From: a virus
Lineage: Duplodnaviria > Heunggongvirae > Uroviricota > Caudoviricetes
Strand: one strand, 5' to 3'
DNA: 30,880 nt
IMG/VR virus record: IMGVR_UViG_648276660_000001
Below, piece after piece: positions 1,132 to 30,880 of the stretch. A program made the translations under genes and the position numbers. The stretch's first letter is position 1; every line of letters starts with the position of its first letter. Under the pieces are notes generated by a model that saw nothing but the letters and a program-made list of their open reading frames with translations, was not told where the DNA came from and made no database searches.

Positions 1132-1913
1132 ACAACGTTTTTACCGCGATACAAAACCGTGACGGAGAAGCCCTTTCTCGCATGTCAGGTTATGAGCATC
1201 AGTACGTCAACAATGACAATGTGGTGAACATGTCAGCAGAGAGGCTTGTTGATGCCCTTTTTAAACAGCTGAAACAACTGTTTCCGGCGGCAGTGGTAAC
1301 CAACCTGAAGACGCCAGAGCAGGAAGTTGCTGCAAAACAGCAGTGGATTGCTGCGTTTGCCGAAGGGGGGATCCGAACCCGTGAACAGGTTTCTGCTGGT
1401 ATGCGCCACGCCCGCGCCAGTGAATCTCCGTTCTGGCCGTCTCCAGGGCAATTTATCAAGTGGTGCAAAGACAGCAAGATGGTTCTTGGCGTCACCATTG
1501 ACGATGTGATGGCGGAGTTTCACCGGTACAGCAAGGAAAAAAGTTTATATCCTGGTGGTCCCGAAAGATTCCCGTGGCGACATCCGGTTATGTACTGGGT
1601 CGTATGTGATACCCGCCGTGCAATGTATCAGCGCCAGCTTAGCGAGATTGAGGTTGAGAAACACGCACGCAGGCTGCTCGATGATTGGGCGAAAAAGGTG
1701 GCTTCCGGACAGCAGATACCCGATCCGGTGATCAGCATACAGGCAAAGCCAGAGCCCATGAGTACGCCTCCGGACACAGGGAGAGACGTTTACCATCCAC
1801 CAGGGCGAAGTTTCGGGTGCATGCCTAACGCCGCCACCCTTGGGGGAATAACACCGGCGCAGTGGCTGATGGAGGAATACAGGCGGGGAAAGGCGGCAGG
1901 ATTTATCAAGTAA
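1128..1913 (+). CDS. Replication protein, lambda P-like (DnaB helicase loader)
   Basis: Translation shares a recalled block with lambda P (FPAAVVTNL...QQWIAAFAEGGIRTREQVSAGMRHAR...PFWPSPGQFIKWC...YPW...YW); GTG 1128 overlaps the upstream TGA stop (GTGA) with GGGAGG RBS 7 nt upstream; ATG 1113 is the alternative start. Confidence 0.8.
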   Translation: MNNVFTAIQNRDGEALSRMSGYEHQYVNNDNVVNMSAERLVDALFKQLKQLFPAAVVTNLKTPEQEVAAKQQWIAAFAEGGIRTREQVSAGMRHARASESPFWPSPGQFIKWCKDSKMVLGVTIDDVMAEFHRYSKEKSLYPGGPERFPWRHPVMYWVVCDTRRAMYQRQLSEIEVEKHARRLLDDWAKKVASGQQIPDPVISIQAKPEPMSTPPDTGRDVYHPPGRSFGCMPNAATLGGITPAQWLMEEYRRGKAAGFIK

Positions 1914-9522: not shown

Positions 9523-9596
9523 GAACTGGAAGCAATGAGTTATGCCTTCCGTGGCTGTACGGGTTTACAGCATGAAGTCATCGCAATGGCGTCCTG

Positions 9597-9685: not shown

Positions 9686-9762
9686 TGGCGTGGCATGCAG
9701 GATTCGAACCTGCGACCAACCGCTTAGAAGGCGGTTGCTCTGTCCAACTGAGCTAATGCCAC
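9686..9762 (-). tRNA. tRNA-Arg (anticodon UCU), phage-encoded
   Basis: Minus-strand 77 nt: GTGGCAT-TA-GCTC-AGTTGGACA-GAGC-A-ACCGC-CTTCTAA-GCGGT-TGGTC-GCAGG-TTCGAAT-CCTGC-ATGCCAC-G-CCA; 7-bp acceptor stem, canonical D, anticodon and T arms; anticodon loop CTTCTAA gives TCT; encoded CCA end. Confidence 0.9.
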
Positions 9763-26177: not shown

Positions 26178-26591
26178 ATGAAGGAATTATTGCTGTTATC
26201 GGTATTTTTGATATCCGCTTGCTCGACATCCTATGATGTTTATGACGGTGTTGATAAGGCATATTGCGACAAAGTTAAAATGGATTTTTCTCTTGCCAAG
26301 ACGGCGAAGGATAGTTGTATTGATCACTACGTCAAGACTTATACCAAGCCAGCCTCATCGGCATCTGATATTGCTGAAGGTGCTGTGTTTGAGTGTAACA
26401 AGGTGATATCCATCGCAGCGAGTTCTTCATACGATGCTGCTGTATGTGCAATGGCTGAAAGAAACGGCATGTCAGTGCAAAAAATTAATAGCATGATAAG
26501 CAGTAATGACGAAGCCAAAATAAGAACTGATATCAGCTCGGTGAAAAAAGATGCCATGAACAGAGTTGTAAAATATCAGTCATCTTTATAA
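26178..26591 (+). CDS. Putative lipoprotein (cargo gene; candidate superinfection-exclusion or envelope protein)
   Basis: AAGGAA RBS; N-terminus MKELLLLSVFLISAC has a signal peptide with lipobox-like LISA-C; AT-rich relative to neighbours; followed by palindrome copy 3 and a terminator. Confidence 0.65.
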   Translation: MKELLLLSVFLISACSTSYDVYDGVDKAYCDKVKMDFSLAKTAKDSCIDHYVKTYTKPASSASDIAEGAVFECNKVISIAASSSYDAAVCAMAERNGMSVQKINSMISSNDEAKIRTDISSVKKDAMNRVVKYQSSL

Positions 26592-27611: not shown

Positions 27612-28298
27612 TCAGAAGAACCCAGCCTTGTCGTTGATGTACTCCGCGTGGGTCTGGATATCACGCAGGCATTTGCTCACACCAACAATGTAGCAGAACA
27701 TGGTGGTCAGCTCCGCCGCCGCGCCCGATACGTCGTGCCCGTCTTCCTGTAACTGGTTCAGCAGATTCATCAGCAGTGAGTTCTCCGTCAGGCCGAGAAC
27801 ACCAGACGGAGAATGAATCAGGCTGCGGTAGCCGGGCTTCAGTGGGGCACTGTAGGTTTTGTTCTCTATCTTCATTGCCTGCATCACTGCTGATGCTGTG
27901 GCGTTGGCTACCTGGTCGGCAACTATCTTTATGCGTTCTTCCTGCGGGAGCGAGTTTTTAATGTAACTTCCGGTGCGGCGGATCTGAGGAAGAACCTCAC
28001 CTGTAACCCATTTACGAAAGCGGTAGGGGATAGTGCCTGGTGTCACTGCGTCGCGGCAGCGGAGGATCAGTGTGTAGAGGCCTGACTCGTTGATAATATT
28101 GGTTTCACCTTGACGGCCTAAGTTAAATTTAGCCCTTTCATCATCATCAAGAGATTTTATTGACATAGTGGGGTTTGTCAGTTGAAGAGCTTTAATAACG
28201 TCTTTGGCAACAAACCAAGGATTTCCATCAATAACAATGGCTCGAATGGTGGCTTCTGATTCAAAATGAAAAACAGATGGGGTTACGTTAGCAGTCAT
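27612..28298 (-). CDS. Antirepressor (Bro-N N-terminal domain plus Ant/KilA-C-like C-terminal domain)
   Basis: Translation contains FHFESEATIRAIVIDGNPWFVAKDVIKALQL, typical of Bro-N/AntA domains (recalled); ATG 28298 with GGTGA RBS 6 nt upstream (GTG at 28307 is the alternative). Confidence 0.8.
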   Translation of the reverse strand: MTANVTPSVFHFESEATIRAIVIDGNPWFVAKDVIKALQLTNPTMSIKSLDDDERAKFNLGRQGETNIINESGLYTLILRCRDAVTPGTIPYRFRKWVTGEVLPQIRRTGSYIKNSLPQEERIKIVADQVANATASAVMQAMKIENKTYSAPLKPGYRSLIHSPSGVLGLTENSLLMNLLNQLQEDGHDVSGAAAELTTMFCYIVGVSKCLRDIQTHAEYINDKAGFF

Positions 28299-28456
28299 AG
28301 TGATCACCTTTTAGTATGGTTAATCACCACCTGAGGTGCAAATCTCGTTGGTGGTGAGACGTACAGGGTTTGCACTACCGGCTAAAAGGACCCGGCGCAC
28401 CTTTCGGTGCCCCTGCACGTCCCACCATAATTCTGGCATGACTGTGCTATACGCAT

Positions 28457-28478
28457 AAAAAAACCACGTCTGGCGTGG
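28457..28478 (-). terminator. Intrinsic terminator inside the antirepressor leader (CCACG-ccaga-CGTGG followed by TTTTTTT on minus strand)
   Basis: Hairpin plus U7 read in sequence, about 160 nt upstream of the ant start. Confidence 0.5.
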
Positions 28479-28640
28479 TATGCGCCTTTTAGTAATCCGG
28501 GGTGCAAATCCCGGCACTGGATTTTGCCAGTGCCCGATTACTATGGCACAAGAGGAGTGCGATGTAAATTTACCGAAAAGGTAATGATAAGCGCGAAAAA
28601 ACATTAAAATCAACCGTATTTGGTTGATTGCGTTTAACGC

Positions 28641-28697: not shown

Positions 28698-29426
28698 ATG
28701 GAAGTTTTCTGGATAGTTGTTGGTGTGGTTGCGGTGATTATTTACGTTATCAACCAGAACAAGACTAAGATCTCTGATCGTACGGTCGTTAATCAGAACA
28801 AAACGATAAAGACCGAAGATGGGGAGATAACGATTAATCGTACACAGGTGATAGAGCACACATCTACTCAGTTTCAAAAAACTGGAGGTAACGCGCCTGA
28901 TATTTCCGTACCTCCTGCTTATGATAGTGCGGTAATCCAGACATATTATAAACAGCAGGAGTTAGCAAAAGAGAGGCAACTGATTCAGCCAAAGCCGTTT
29001 ACAGCTGAGCTTCCACCTGGAGTGTCAACGCGTCCGGCATATCATGGAAGATTCCCTGGTGATGACATATCGTCTCAGTCATTTAAAAAAGCACCTCAGG
29101 CAGTATCAGAGCCAGCAAGAATATCTTCTGTATCGCCGCCAAAAGAAGAATCAGCTAACAGAGTTTCAAGCGGTAGCAAGCAGTGCTTGCGATGCAGAAT
29201 AAACCTTCCATATGAAAAATTCAGGAAATCGTCAAAAAATCCGGATGGATTGACTAAGTGGTGTGCAAGGTGTCTCGATGGCCCAAAGAATACACGTCAT
29301 ATGAAGTGGTGCCCAATTTGTAATGTCCGCAGAAAACGAACCAGCTTTTACCCTAATAATCAAAATGCGGACGGCTTAATGGCATGGTGCAAAACGTGCT
29401 GGGACGAGCACAAAGCGAAACGATAG
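28698..29426 (+). CDS. Membrane-anchored protein with C-terminal repeated zinc-ribbon motifs (cargo gene)
   Basis: GAGG RBS; N-terminal hydrophobic helix MEVFWIVVGVVAVIIYVI; C-terminus has four CxxC pairs, two in near-identical context (PDGLTKWCARCLD and ADGLMAWCKTCWD); followed by a terminator. Confidence 0.7.
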   Translation: MEVFWIVVGVVAVIIYVINQNKTKISDRTVVNQNKTIKTEDGEITINRTQVIEHTSTQFQKTGGNAPDISVPPAYDSAVIQTYYKQQELAKERQLIQPKPFTAELPPGVSTRPAYHGRFPGDDISSQSFKKAPQAVSEPARISSVSPPKEESANRVSSGSKQCLRCRINLPYEKFRKSSKNPDGLTKWCARCLDGPKNTRHMKWCPICNVRRKRTSFYPNNQNADGLMAWCKTCWDEHKAKR

Positions 29427-29428
29427 GC

Positions 29429-29452
29429 CGCTCTTGCGGCCTTTAAATTTAC
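29429..29452. terminator. Bidirectional intrinsic terminator (GGCCGC-tcttg-GCGGCC then TTTAAATTT)
   Basis: Read in sequence between convergent genes. Confidence 0.6.
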
Positions 29453-29706
29453 CGGGTTTGTTTTCGTAATTGTTCGGCACAATAGTCGAGATGTGTTTGC
29501 AGATCCTGCATAGACATCTGTGAGCTGGTGACGTAGTTAATCAGTGCAGTCAGTTCGGCAAGTGGGCCATCGACATTAAATCCATCCTTATCGAGATCCC
29601 GGAGTAATTTCATCAAGTGCGATCCCTCCACCAGTGACCTGACGCCTCCCGGCGTGTGAATCCTTTCGGTAAATCCGTCTTCCAGTGGATAGTGATACTG
29701 CTGCAT
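29449..29706 (-). CDS. Small Ant C-terminal-domain-only protein (about 85 aa), candidate SOS-inducible antirepressor
   Basis: Translation from MQQYHYPLEDGF... is homologous to the C-terminal third of the 228-aa antirepressor at 27612..28298 (shared SLL.NLL..L...G..V.G..AELT..F.Y); GGAG RBS 8 nt upstream of ATG 29706; LexA box 22 nt upstream; ORF track shows a longer version without RBS. Confidence 0.6.
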   Translation of the reverse strand: MQQYHYPLEDGFTERIHTPGGVRSLVEGSHLMKLLRDLDKDGFNVDGPLAELTALINYVTSSQMSMQDLQTHLDYCAEQLRKQTR

Positions 29707-29727
29707 CTTATCTTCTCCATGCAATAA

Positions 29728-29743
29728 CTGTATATTTATACAG
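29728..29743. promoter_or_regulatory. Canonical LexA (SOS) box CTGTATATTTATACAG
   Basis: CTGT-N8-ACAG with AT-rich centre read in sequence, overlapping the likely -10 region of the minus-strand gene starting at 29706. Confidence 0.7.
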
Positions 29744-29781
29744 TAGCAAATAATTTGTTTGCTATCCAGCACGTTTTGCAA

Positions 29782-29798
29782 ATTACCTGAAAGGTAAT
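29782..29798. promoter_or_regulatory. Operator palindrome ATTACCTgaaAGGTAAT adjacent to a TTGCAA -35-like hexamer of the SOS-box promoter
   Basis: Read in sequence. Confidence 0.5.
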
Positions 29799-29901
29799 AT
29801 CTATTCGTATTCACAGTCTTTCTATCCATATATGGTTTTTCAGGTAATAGAATAACCAGATATGCGGCGCAACGGGTGCTGCGACTATCTGGAGATTTAA
29901 C

Positions 29902-30880
29902 ATGACGGTCTCAACCGAAGTTGACCACAACGAATACACCGGTAACGGCGTTACGACATCATTTCCGTATACCTTCCGTATTTTCAAAAAAACCGACCTG
30001 GTTGTTCAGGTGTCTGACCTGAACGGGAACGTAACAGAATTGGTTCTGGATACCGGTTATAAGGTAACTGGAGCGGGCACTTATAGTGGCGGTGAAGTGG
30101 TTCTCCCGTCGCCGCTTGCTGCTGGCTGGCGAATTACGATAGAGCGTGTGCTTGATGTGGTGCAGGAGACTGATCTTCGCAATCAGGGAAAATTTTTCCC
30201 CGAAGTTCATGAAGATGCATTTGACTACCTGACGATGCTGATCCAGCGATGTTTTGGGTGGTTCAGACGTGCATTGATGAAACCATCTTTGCTTGCAAAA
30301 TATTACGATGCAAAGCAAAACAAAATTTCTAACCTTGCAGATCCATCATTTGAGCAGGACGCTGTAAATAATCGCTCAATGCGTAATTATGTCGATGCTG
30401 CAATCGCCGGGGTTGTTGGTGGTTTTGGTTGGTTTATACCGTCAGGAAGCGGGGCAAGACAACGAACATTTCAAAGCAAAATGAGGGATATAATTTCTCC
30501 TTGTGATTACGAAGATAATATTTTTATGATTAAGGAGTTGATATCCAAAGGCAAAAATGCCGCTGTTTTTAACTCATATTATACTTTTGTTATTACTGTT
30601 GGCGAATGGGGTGATTACCCTACACTCAAAGATGCAATCATTGCAGCCCAGTCAATGAGACCTATGTGGGATGGTGGTAATGCTTTCTGCGAAATAAGAA
30701 TTAAGACCGGGCATATTATCAACTATCAAATTGAATTCAGTTCAGGTGTTGATTTGTCTTGGATTAAAATAACATCAGAAGACTCAGTGGTTTTCTCTGA
30801 CACTCGTTTGTTTACTAAAATCGTTAGAACGTATTACGAATACAAGTATTTATTTTACATTTGCGATGCAGCAAAAAGTC
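29902..30880 (+). CDS. Tail fibre/tailspike protein, 5' partial (T7 gp17-like N-terminal particle-binding domain followed by the start of a divergent, AT-rich receptor-binding domain); continues beyond the window
   Basis: GGAG RBS 7 nt before ATG 29902; N-terminal region resembles recalled T7 tail-fibre N-domain (...ISNLADPSFEQDAVNNRSMRNY...); then SGSGARQRTFQSKMRDIISPCDYED, reminiscent of tailspike/depolymerase beta-helix starts; no stop codon before the window end. Confidence 0.75.
   Translation, partial: MTVSTEVDHNEYTGNGVTTSFPYTFRIFKKTDLVVQVSDLNGNVTELVLDTGYKVTGAGTYSGGEVVLPSPLAAGWRITIERVLDVVQETDLRNQGKFFPEVHEDAFDYLTMLIQRCFGWFRRALMKPSLLAKYYDAKQNKISNLADPSFEQDAVNNRSMRNYVDAAIAGVVGGFGWFIPSGSGARQRTFQSKMRDIISPCDYEDNIFMIKELISKGKNAAVFNSYYTFVITVGEWGDYPTLKDAIIAAQSMRPMWDGGNAFCEIRIKTGHIINYQIEFSSGVDLSWIKITSEDSVVFSDTRLFTKIVRTYYEYKYLFYICDAAKS

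What the first reader, a model, noticed from the sequence alone, without database searches (positions are those of the whole stretch)
29449..29798. LexA box directly upstream of a truncated antirepressor-domain gene: SOS-coupled induction switch candidate
Seen in sequence: canonical SOS box CTGTATATTTATACAG (29728-29743) lies 22 nt upstream of a small gene (29706-29449, minus strand) whose product aligns with the C-terminal domain of the full-length Bro-N antirepressor 1.5 kb away. Established knowledge: several temperate phages (for example coliphage 186 Tum and Gifsy-type phages) use LexA-repressed antirepressors rather than RecA-cleavable repressors. Here the promoter appears to carry both a LexA box and the palindromic operator.
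Basis: partly seen in the sequence, partly recalled or inferred. Interest (0 to 1): 0.6.

Follow-up and report, generated by a model that had tools for sequence, protein, structure and literature searches.

The report
Known LexA-controlled phage antirepressor switch
This is the E. coli prophage copy of an already characterised switch, in which DNA damage removes the host LexA repressor from the promoter of a small phage protein (Ant) that then disables the prophage repressor; it is real but not new.

Summary
A near-consensus LexA box (29728-29743; 18/20 to the 20-mer consensus) is the only LexA-like site in the window. It lies 21 nt upstream of an 85-aa gene (29449..29706, minus).

The gene is not truncated. 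It is the full-length orthologue (88% aa identity) of Ant from Salmonella phage SPC32H, which is annotated "ant" in GenBank and solved in complex with its repressor (PDB 5D50). dN/dS against the Salmonella and Enterobacter orthologues is about 0.06.

The box is conserved at the same aligned position in nine Uetakevirus phages. SPC32N differs from SPC32H at only two bases genome-wide, and one of them breaks this box.

The window is 100% identical, over the two stretches compared, to a prophage at guaA in E. coli MS 198-1. A non-cleavable Rep homologue (E=4e-42 to 5D50 chain A, HTH domains only) sits just outside the window.

The 17-bp palindrome at 29782-29798 belongs to the Rep-operator family (11 copies against 0.8 expected). 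It lies upstream of the predicted -35, so whether it acts on the ant promoter is unresolved.

The neighbouring Bro-N antirepressor has no LexA box. It is preceded by isrK and C4 antisense RNAs.

Verdict: an already known system, unannotated in E. coli; low interest.

The parts
29728..29743 (.). LexA (SOS) box CTGTATATTTATACAG. The 20-mer at 29726-29745 matches the consensus at 18/20.
   Evidence: the only LexA-like site in the window. It aligns column for column with the box of SPC32H, epsilon15, phiV10, Tyrion, BUCT554 and two Klebsiella phages. Among 7 E. coli variants the CTGT and ACAG cores are invariant and only the spacer varies.
29449..29706 (-). ant: small antirepressor, 85 aa, full length.
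   Evidence: 88% aa identity to SPC32H ant (KC911856, SPC32H_020). E=4.1e-47 to PDB 5D50 chain E 'Anti-repressor protein'. phrog_450 at E=9e-48. dN/dS 0.04-0.07 against the Salmonella and Enterobacter orthologues.
29715..29718 (-). Shine-Dalgarno GGAG, 8 nt before the ATG at 29706.
   Evidence: Read from the sequence. GGAG is invariant in all 9 phages.
29740..29768 (-). Predicted ant promoter: -35 TGGATA (29768..29763), a 17-nt spacer ending in TG (29748..29747), and -10 TACTGT (29745..29740). The -10 overlaps the distal half of the LexA box, and the start point would fall inside the box.
   Evidence: Inference from conservation. T.TG.TA.TGT and CTGGA are invariant across 9 phages of four host genera, while the spacer between them varies. 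Among E. coli variants the base between TG and TA varies but TG and TA do not. The consensus scan did not call it, because the -10 matches only 3/6.
29782..29798 (.). Rep-type operator palindrome ATTACC-N5-GGTAAT. It lies between the divergent ant and tailspike genes, 13 nt upstream of the predicted ant -35.
   Evidence: 11 copies in the window against 0.82 expected. 18 copies in SPC32H, clustered on both sides of rep. The epsilon15 GenBank record annotates the equivalent sites, including the one next to gp19, as 'repressor' binding sites. Copies also flank the Rep homologue of the source prophage.
29425..29442 (.). G+C-rich hairpin between the convergent genes 28698..29426 (+) and ant (-). 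It is a likely terminator.
   Evidence: epsilon15 annotates a rho-independent terminator at the equivalent place after gp19.
29893..30880 (+). Tailspike gene, 5' part only, divergent from ant. Same synteny as SPC32H, epsilon15 and phiV10.
27612..28307 (-). Context: a second antirepressor, Bro-N domain plus an Ant-like C-terminal domain. The likely start is the ATG at 28298.
   Evidence: Pfam Bro-N at E=5.6e-20. phrog_130 'anti-repressor Ant', and phrog_450 on residues 148-229. 82% identical to ORF4 of phage vB_EcoP_ZX5, whose overexpression lowered lysogeny (PMC9782041). No LexA-like box lies upstream.
28347..28585 (-). Context: control region of the Bro-N antirepressor. It contains a Rep-type palindrome (28569-28585), the promoter-like site TTTACA-17-CATAGT (28568..28540), an isrK-like RNA (28533..28457) and a C4 antisense RNA (28432..28347).
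   Evidence: Rfam at gathering threshold: C4 77.8 bits (cut-off 45) and isrK 67.4 bits (cut-off 50). Promoter scan. Palindrome. The same isrK-C4-Bro-N order occurs in vB_EcoP_ZX5.

Best explanation
This is the ant locus of an epsilon15/phiV10-type (Uetakevirus) prophage, integrated at guaA in E. coli. It should work like the SPC32H switch.

In the lysogen, host LexA sits on the box at 29728-29743. The box overlaps the -10 and start point of the ant promoter, so ant stays off. The prophage repressor Rep, a two-HTH protein with no self-cleavage domain encoded about 420 bp before the window, holds the lytic promoters through ATTACC-N5-GGTAAT operators.

DNA damage activates RecA and LexA cleaves itself. 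The 85-aa Ant is then made, binds Rep and takes the Rep tetramer apart. Rep leaves its operators and the prophage is induced.

Shown here by sequence and homology: the box, the orthology of Ant and of Rep, the operator family and the synteny.

Inferred: LexA binding at this site, the exact promoter, Ant-Rep binding in this phage, and any effect of the nearby Rep operator on the ant promoter.
For: Ant orthology. 88% aa identity to the gene annotated ant in SPC32H/SPC32N. E=4e-47 to PDB 5D50_E 'Anti-repressor protein'. Strong purifying selection.

LexA box. 18/20 to consensus and unique in the window. It is likewise the only LexA-like site in the whole SPC32H and epsilon15 genomes. It is conserved in register in 9 phages and 7 E. 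coli variants.

Genetic support from the relatives. SPC32H and SPC32N differ at only two bases. One converts CTGT to CTTT in this box; the other lies in the tailspike gene.

Rep. The source prophage encodes a 194-aa homologue: 42% identity to SPC32H Rep, E=4e-42 to 5D50_A, only HTH domains and no S24 peptidase domain. It is flanked by the same palindromes.

Literature. A review states that in several Salmonella prophages, citing Kim and Ryu 2013, LexA self-cleavage leads to synthesis of an antirepressor that inhibits the repressor by protein-protein contact (PMC7380047). The SPC32H Ant tetramer binds two Rep dimers and breaks the DNA-binding tetramer (PMC9638917).

A close E. coli relative, vB_EcoP_ZX5, has an identical small protein. 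Mitomycin C raises its titre from 10^7 to 10^9 PFU/mL (PMC9782041).
Against: Nothing has been measured for this E. coli phage's small gene. Rep is only 42% identical to SPC32H Rep although Ant is 88% identical, so the Ant-Rep contact is assumed rather than shown. The predicted -10 (TACTGT) is weak and was not called by the consensus scan. The only E. coli study of this phage group credits antirepression to the Bro-N protein and leaves the small gene as hypothetical. The two primary SPC32H papers could not be read here, so their details rest on citing papers and on my recollection of the abstracts.
Confidence: 0.9

Rival explanations
1. The small gene is a redundant or decaying duplicate of the Bro-N antirepressor's C-terminal domain. 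On this view the Bro-N protein is the real inducer in E. coli Uetakeviruses and the LexA box has little consequence.
For: The two proteins share a domain (40% identity). Overexpression of the Bro-N ORF4 of vB_EcoP_ZX5, which is 82% identical to the window's protein, reduced prophage counts about 1000-fold (PMC9782041). Databases call the small gene 'hypothetical'.
Against: dN/dS is about 0.06 and the small gene keeps its full length in every relative. SPC32H has no Bro-N paralogue, only the small Ant. The Bro-N gene has no LexA-like box, so it has no direct SOS input. The LexA box cores are invariant across all variants.
Confidence: 0.05
2. The ant promoter is an AND gate. The Rep operator at 29782-29798 acts on it together with LexA, so Rep also represses (or activates) its own antirepressor.
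For: The operator and the box are 38 bp apart with the same spacing in the seven E. coli, Salmonella and Enterobacter phages; in the two Klebsiella phages the spacing differs by one base. At the Bro-N/isrK promoter a similar palindrome abuts the -35. The epsilon15 record marks this site as a repressor site.
Against: With the predicted promoter, the operator spans roughly -49 to -65, outside the polymerase core contacts. The site is about equally far from the divergent tailspike gene (95 nt from its ATG). Other copies sit 3-90 nt upstream of rightward genes, so it may serve the tailspike promoter instead. Full repression of ant by Rep would block SOS induction.
Confidence: 0.3
3. The LexA-like sequence is a chance palindrome, or it regulates the divergent tailspike gene rather than the small gene.
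For: It lies in an A+T-rich divergent intergenic region of 186 bp.
Against: 0.08 sites are expected per window. The site is conserved in register across four host genera. It is 21 nt from the ant ATG but 150 nt from the tailspike ATG. The SPC32N mutation lies in the box.
Confidence: 0.02

Closest known systems
Ant/Rep/LexA lytic switch of Salmonella phage SPC32H (Kim and Ryu 2013, J Virol 87:11775; Kim et al. 2016, PNAS 113:E2480; PDB 5D50, 5D4Z)
   Same: Orthologous small Ant (88% identity). The LexA box is at the same aligned position upstream. Same place in the genome, between the 824-aa internal protein gene and the divergent tailspike gene. Homologous non-cleavable Rep, same operator palindrome and same genus (Uetakevirus).
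   Different: The host is E. coli. Rep is only 42% identical. About 3.2 kb of extra genes, including a second antirepressor (Bro-N) with isrK/C4 RNAs, are inserted between the 824-aa internal protein gene and ant. Nothing has been tested experimentally for this copy.
Coliphage 186 Tum, Fels-2 Tum and the Gifsy GfoA/GfhA antirepressors (Shearwin et al. 1998; Lemire et al. 2011, PMC3121763)
   Same: Same logic: a LexA-repressed promoter drives a small antirepressor that inactivates a non-cleavable repressor by binding it (PMC7380047).
   Different: No detectable sequence relationship. The Pfam scan gave no DinI/Tum-type family. These phages have a different morphology and genome organisation.
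P22 immI region (mnt-arc-ant, sar RNA)
   Same: An antirepressor module lies between the ejection-protein genes and the tailspike gene of a short-tailed temperate phage. This point rests on established knowledge, not on a test here.
   Different: P22 Ant is controlled by Mnt, Arc and an antisense RNA, not by LexA. A P22 ant mutant remains SOS-inducible because its repressor is cleavable (PMC7380047).
P1/P7 immI (c4 antisense RNA-icd-ant) and Gifsy-1 isrK
   Same: This applies to the neighbouring Bro-N antirepressor only. C4 and isrK RNA matches above the Rfam cut-offs lie directly upstream on the same strand.
   Different: It is not part of the LexA-controlled small gene. No icd-like ORF was examined.

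Membership tests
SPC32H-type (Uetakevirus) LexA-Ant-Rep antirepression switch | A small (~86 aa) Ant protein homologous to SPC32H Ant | tested here: met
   88% identity by tblastn. E=4.1e-47 to PDB 5D50_E over residues 2-84.
SPC32H-type (Uetakevirus) LexA-Ant-Rep antirepression switch | A LexA box overlapping the ant promoter | tested here: met
   A perfect CTGT-N8-ACAG core, 18/20 to consensus, aligned with the SPC32H box that is mutated in SPC32N. The overlap with the promoter rests on a predicted extended -10 (inference).
SPC32H-type (Uetakevirus) LexA-Ant-Rep antirepression switch | A cognate Rep repressor homologous to SPC32H Rep and lacking a RecA-dependent self-cleavage domain | tested here: met
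   Rep is outside the window but in the same prophage (NZ_CP146687.1 1470284..1470868). 42% identity. E=4e-42 to 5D50_A. Pfam finds HTH domains only.
SPC32H-type (Uetakevirus) LexA-Ant-Rep antirepression switch | Conserved genomic position, divergent from the tailspike gene | tested here: met
SPC32H-type (Uetakevirus) LexA-Ant-Rep antirepression switch | LexA binds the site, ant is induced by DNA damage, and Ant binds and inactivates Rep | not testable with these tools
   Needs gel-shift, reporter and pull-down experiments. The only indirect support is mitomycin C inducibility of the close relative vB_EcoP_ZX5.
186 Tum / Gifsy-type antirepressors | Sequence homology to Tum (DinI-like domain) or to GfoA/GfhA | tested here: not met
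   The Pfam scan at E<=0.1 gave only a sub-threshold DUF724 hit. PHROG hits are to phrog_450, phrog_15539 and phrog_1760. The locus works like these systems but is not a member.
Bro-N family antirepressors | An N-terminal Bro-N domain (PF02498) | tested here: not met
   The small protein has no Bro-N domain. It matches only the C-terminal domain of the neighbouring Bro-N protein.
P1 immI-type antirepressor control (C4 antisense RNA) | A C4 RNA upstream of the antirepressor gene | tested here: not met
   There is no Rfam match between 29707 and 29892. The C4 and isrK matches lie upstream of the other (Bro-N) gene.

The most novel reading that the evidence does not exclude
E. coli Uetakevirus prophages may run two antirepressors that share one Rep-binding domain but receive different inputs. 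The small Ant is fired by LexA cleavage. The Bro-N-Ant fusion is held by a Rep-type operator at its promoter plus isrK/C4 antisense RNA. The small Ant would be the SOS trigger. The Bro-N protein, released only once Rep falls, would be a positive-feedback lock, or an anti-immunity weapon acting in trans on resident relatives at infection. The Rep operator next to the ant promoter could add Rep feedback on the trigger itself.
Probability: 0.25. Interest if true: 0.4.

Novelty: already known. Interest (0 to 1): 0.15.

Why it matters
The mechanism is already established in a Salmonella phage of the same genus, down to a crystal structure, so the finding adds no new biology.

Its practical value is annotation. 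The same locus is present in 531 of 5426 complete E. coli genomes and in phages such as phiV10, TL-2011b and vB_EcoP_ZX5. In every listed E. coli-phage and E. coli genome record that carries annotation at this locus it is labelled 'hypothetical protein'. The one experimental paper on an E. coli member credits antirepression to the neighbouring Bro-N protein.

Recognising the small gene as the likely SOS-linked trigger would correct how induction of these common prophages is interpreted. Some of them are serotype-converting or carried by EHEC strains.

Tried and rejected
(1) My first pattern search used the wrong spacing (CTGT-N10-CAG) and missed the site. I corrected it.

(2) I tried to read the primary papers: Kim and Ryu 2013, Kim et al. 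2016, and Kropinski et al. 2007 on epsilon15. None is held. I used citing papers and GenBank records instead.

(3) I looked for Rep inside the window by tblastn and found none. It was found just upstream in the source genome.

(4) I considered the 21-bp palindrome TAGCAAATAA/TTGTTTGCTA (29744-29764), next to the box, as a second operator. I rejected it as such. It is unique in the window, absent from the Salmonella relatives, and one arm is broken in 2 of 7 E. coli variants while the TG-n-TA of the extended -10 is kept.

(5) The sigma-70 consensus scan gave no ant or tailspike promoter in the intergenic region. The promoter proposed here rests on conservation only.

(6) The longer 126-aa reading frame from the ATG at 29829 was rejected. 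It would run through the operator and the LexA box, and no annotator or homologue uses it.

(7) The two other CTGT-N8-ACAG matches (9555, 14097) were rejected as LexA sites. Both have G+C-rich spacers and failed the 20-mer filter.

Full report
**1. The observation**

The sequence is as described.
- CTGTATATTTATACAG occupies 29728-29743.
- On the minus strand an ATG at 29706 opens an 85-codon frame that ends at 29449.
- GGAG lies 8 nt before that ATG, and 21 nt separate the box from the start codon.

CTGT-N8-ACAG occurs three times in the window against 0.40 expected, but the copies at 9555 and 14097 have G+C-rich spacers. With an A/T spacer and up to one mismatch, this is the only hit (0.08 expected).

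The 20-mer at 29726-29745 matches the E. coli consensus TACTGTATATATATACAGTA at 18 of 20 positions. No other position in the window comes within 7 mismatches while keeping the core tetramers.

The product aligns with residues 150-227 of the Bro-N protein encoded at 27612..28307: 40% identity, E=8e-16.

The palindrome ATTACCTGAAAGGTAAT at 29782-29798 is one of 11 copies (up to 2 mismatches) in the window, against 0.82 expected.

The mechanical ORF list gives a 126-aa frame from 29829. Annotators of TL-2011b and of RefSeq use the 258-nt gene, as do all homologues.

**2. What it is**

The window belongs to an epsilon15/phiV10-type phage (genus Uetakevirus).
- The locus is 96-99% identical to TL-2011b, phiV10, vB_EcoP_ZX5 and others.
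- The first 2.5 kb and the ant region are 100% identical to a prophage next to guaA in E. coli MS 198-1.

By tblastn the small protein is 88% identical to the gene annotated "ant: anti-repressor protein" in Salmonella phages SPC32H and SPC32N. Against the PDB it matches chain E of 5D50, "Anti-repressor protein", 86 aa, at E=4.1e-47 over residues 2-84.

It is therefore the full-length small Ant, not a truncated gene. Nei-Gojobori dN/dS against the SPC32H, epsilon15, Tyrion and BUCT554 orthologues is 0.04-0.07, with dS above 1.4.

Synteny is the same in SPC32H: a 2475-nt internal-protein gene, then ant on the opposite strand, then the divergent tailspike.

**3. The LexA box in relatives**

I aligned the ant-tailspike intergenic regions of nine phages from Escherichia, Salmonella, Enterobacter and Klebsiella hosts. 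The box sits in the same columns in all of them. The two Klebsiella phages have ATGT in place of CTGT.

Among seven E. coli variants the CTGT and ACAG cores are invariant and all variation falls in the 8-nt spacer.

In SPC32H and epsilon15 this is the only LexA-like site in the whole genome.

SPC32H and SPC32N are both 38,689 bp and differ at exactly two positions:
- 19960 turns CTGT into CTTT in this box.
- 20147 lies in codon 5 of the tailspike gene.

This agrees with my recollection of the abstract of Kim and Ryu (2013). There, a single change in the LexA site makes Ant constitutive and forces SPC32N into lytic growth. I could not read the paper itself.

A review confirms the general statement that in several Salmonella prophages, citing Kim and Ryu 2013, LexA self-cleavage leads to synthesis of an antirepressor that inhibits the repressor by direct binding (PMC7380047).

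**4. The promoter (inference)**

Across the nine phages the string T.TG.TA.TGT just before and into the box is invariant, and so is CTGGA 17-18 nt further upstream. The sequence between them is free to vary.

I read this as an extended -10 promoter:
- -35 TGGATA (29768..29763);
- TG (29748..29747);
- -10 TACTGT (29745..29740).

The start point would be near 29733, inside the box, so bound LexA would occlude it.

Within E. coli variants the base between TG and TA changes from C to A. That change breaks the neighbouring 21-bp palindrome but keeps TG-n-TA, which favours the promoter reading. The consensus scan did not call this promoter because the -10 matches only 3 of 6 positions.

**5. The target**

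Rep is not in the window. In the source genome a 194-aa HTH protein lies about 420 bp before the window start, at the position of rep.
- It is 42% identical to SPC32H Rep.
- It matches 5D50 chain A "Repressor" at E=4e-42.
- It has only HTH-type Pfam domains and no S24 peptidase domain.

ATTACC-N5-GGTAAT palindromes flank it, as they flank rep in SPC32H. The epsilon15 GenBank record annotates them as repressor-binding sites.

According to a citing paper, Rep binds DNA as a tetramer, and the Ant tetramer binds two Rep dimers and breaks the tetramer (PMC9638917).

**6. The operator near ant**

The palindrome at 29782-29798 lies 38 bp beyond the box, about -49 to -65 from the predicted start. It is 95 nt from the tailspike ATG.

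Other copies lie 3-90 nt upstream of genes on either strand. The equivalent site in epsilon15 is annotated as a repressor site next to an IHF site.

Whether it acts on the ant promoter, the tailspike promoter or both cannot be decided from sequence.

**7. Mechanism**

The most likely sequence of events is this. LexA represses ant in the lysogen. DNA damage leads to LexA cleavage and Ant synthesis. Ant binds Rep, the Rep tetramer comes apart, Rep leaves its operators, and lytic genes are expressed.

I put 0.9 on this. The box, the orthology and the operator family are shown. The binding events in this phage are inferred.

Indirect support comes from vB_EcoP_ZX5, whose small protein is identical. 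It integrates at guaA, and mitomycin C raises its titre from 10^7 to 10^9 PFU/mL (PMC9782041).

**8. The neighbouring Bro-N antirepressor**

This gene has no LexA-like box. Rfam finds two RNAs directly upstream on its strand:
- an isrK-like RNA at 28533..28457;
- a C4 antisense RNA at 28432..28347.

A promoter-like site, TTTACA-17-CATAGT with TG, ends 7 nt before the isrK 5' end, and a Rep-type palindrome abuts its -35.

The protein is 82% identical to ORF4 of vB_EcoP_ZX5. Overexpressing ORF4 lowered lysogeny. That paper does not mention the small gene, which is "hypothetical protein" in its GenBank record.

In ZX5 the order ant-isrK-C4-Bro-N is contiguous on one strand. In the window a 242-aa gene on the other strand (28698..29426) is inserted between them.

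**9. Comparison and novelty**

This is the same system as SPC32H Ant/Rep/LexA, in the same genus. Every sequence-level defining feature is met.

It works like 186 Tum and the Gifsy antirepressors but is unrelated to them in sequence.

The system is already known. What is missing is annotation: 531 of 5426 complete E. coli genomes carry the locus, and in all twelve genome records listed from that search it is annotated as hypothetical.

The only part that may hold something new is the coexistence of two differently wired antirepressors with a shared domain. I rate that 0.25 likely to be a trigger-plus-lock arrangement.

Noticed in passing
window 28347-28533 (minus strand): An isrK-like RNA (28533..28457, 67.4 bits) and a C4 antisense RNA (28432..28347, 77.8 bits) lie directly upstream of the Bro-N antirepressor gene. 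This is a P1 immI / Gifsy-1 type RNA control. The same arrangement occurs in phage vB_EcoP_ZX5, where a CDS called 'ash family protein' (1779..1892) overlaps the C4 match and may be a mis-call.
   Followed up: partly
window 28540-28585: The promoter-like site TTTACA-17-CATAGT (with TG) ends 7 nt before the 5' end of the isrK match. The Rep-type palindrome TTTACCGAAAAGGTAAT (28569-28585) abuts its -35. The Bro-N module therefore looks Rep-controlled rather than LexA-controlled.
   Followed up: partly
window 22, 1950, 2012, 6876, 6894, 10084, 19358, 27524, 28569, 28662, 29782 (start positions): The family of 17-bp palindromes ATTACC-N5-GGTAAT has 11 copies against 0.8 expected. Most lie just upstream of transcription units on either strand. 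The same motif has 18 copies in SPC32H and is annotated as repressor sites in epsilon15. The motif is conserved although the Reps are only 42% identical.
   Followed up: partly
window 29744-29764: The 21-bp palindrome TAGCAAATAA/TTGTTTGCTA lies in the spacer of the predicted ant promoter, next to the LexA box. It is specific to the E. coli lineage and unique in the window, and one arm is broken in 2 of 7 E. coli variants. It is probably not an operator.
   Followed up: yes
window 29449-29706 versus Rep in NZ_CP146687.1 1470284..1470868: Ant is 88% identical between the E. coli and Salmonella phages, while the cognate Reps are 42% identical (about 55% in the first 60 residues). Ant may recognise a conserved Rep surface and could act across phages (crosstalk).
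   Followed up: no
window 28698-29426 (plus strand): A 242-aa ORF with repeated Cys-rich, zinc-ribbon-like motifs. It has weak Stc1 and endonuclease VII-type hits and matches phrog_6762 (unknown function). It is inserted between the two antirepressor modules, is absent at that place from SPC32H and vB_EcoP_ZX5, and is marked only as a misc_feature in TL-2011b.
   Followed up: no
window 26178-26591 (plus strand): A 137-aa ORF with a lipoprotein-like signal (MKELLLLSVFLISAC...) lies immediately after the 824-aa internal-protein gene. It matches phrog_8691 (unknown function) and is a possible moron or exclusion gene.
   Followed up: no
window 9686-9762 (minus strand): tRNA-Arg (anticodon TCT), as in SPC32H.
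   Followed up: yes
window 29820-29853: The blocks GGTAATAGAAT and CCATATATGG are invariant or nearly so across nine phages in the tailspike-proximal half of the intergenic region. They include a lone GGTAAT half-site and a TAGAAT that could be the tailspike -10. epsilon15 annotates an IHF site nearby. The tailspike promoter is unassigned.
   Followed up: no
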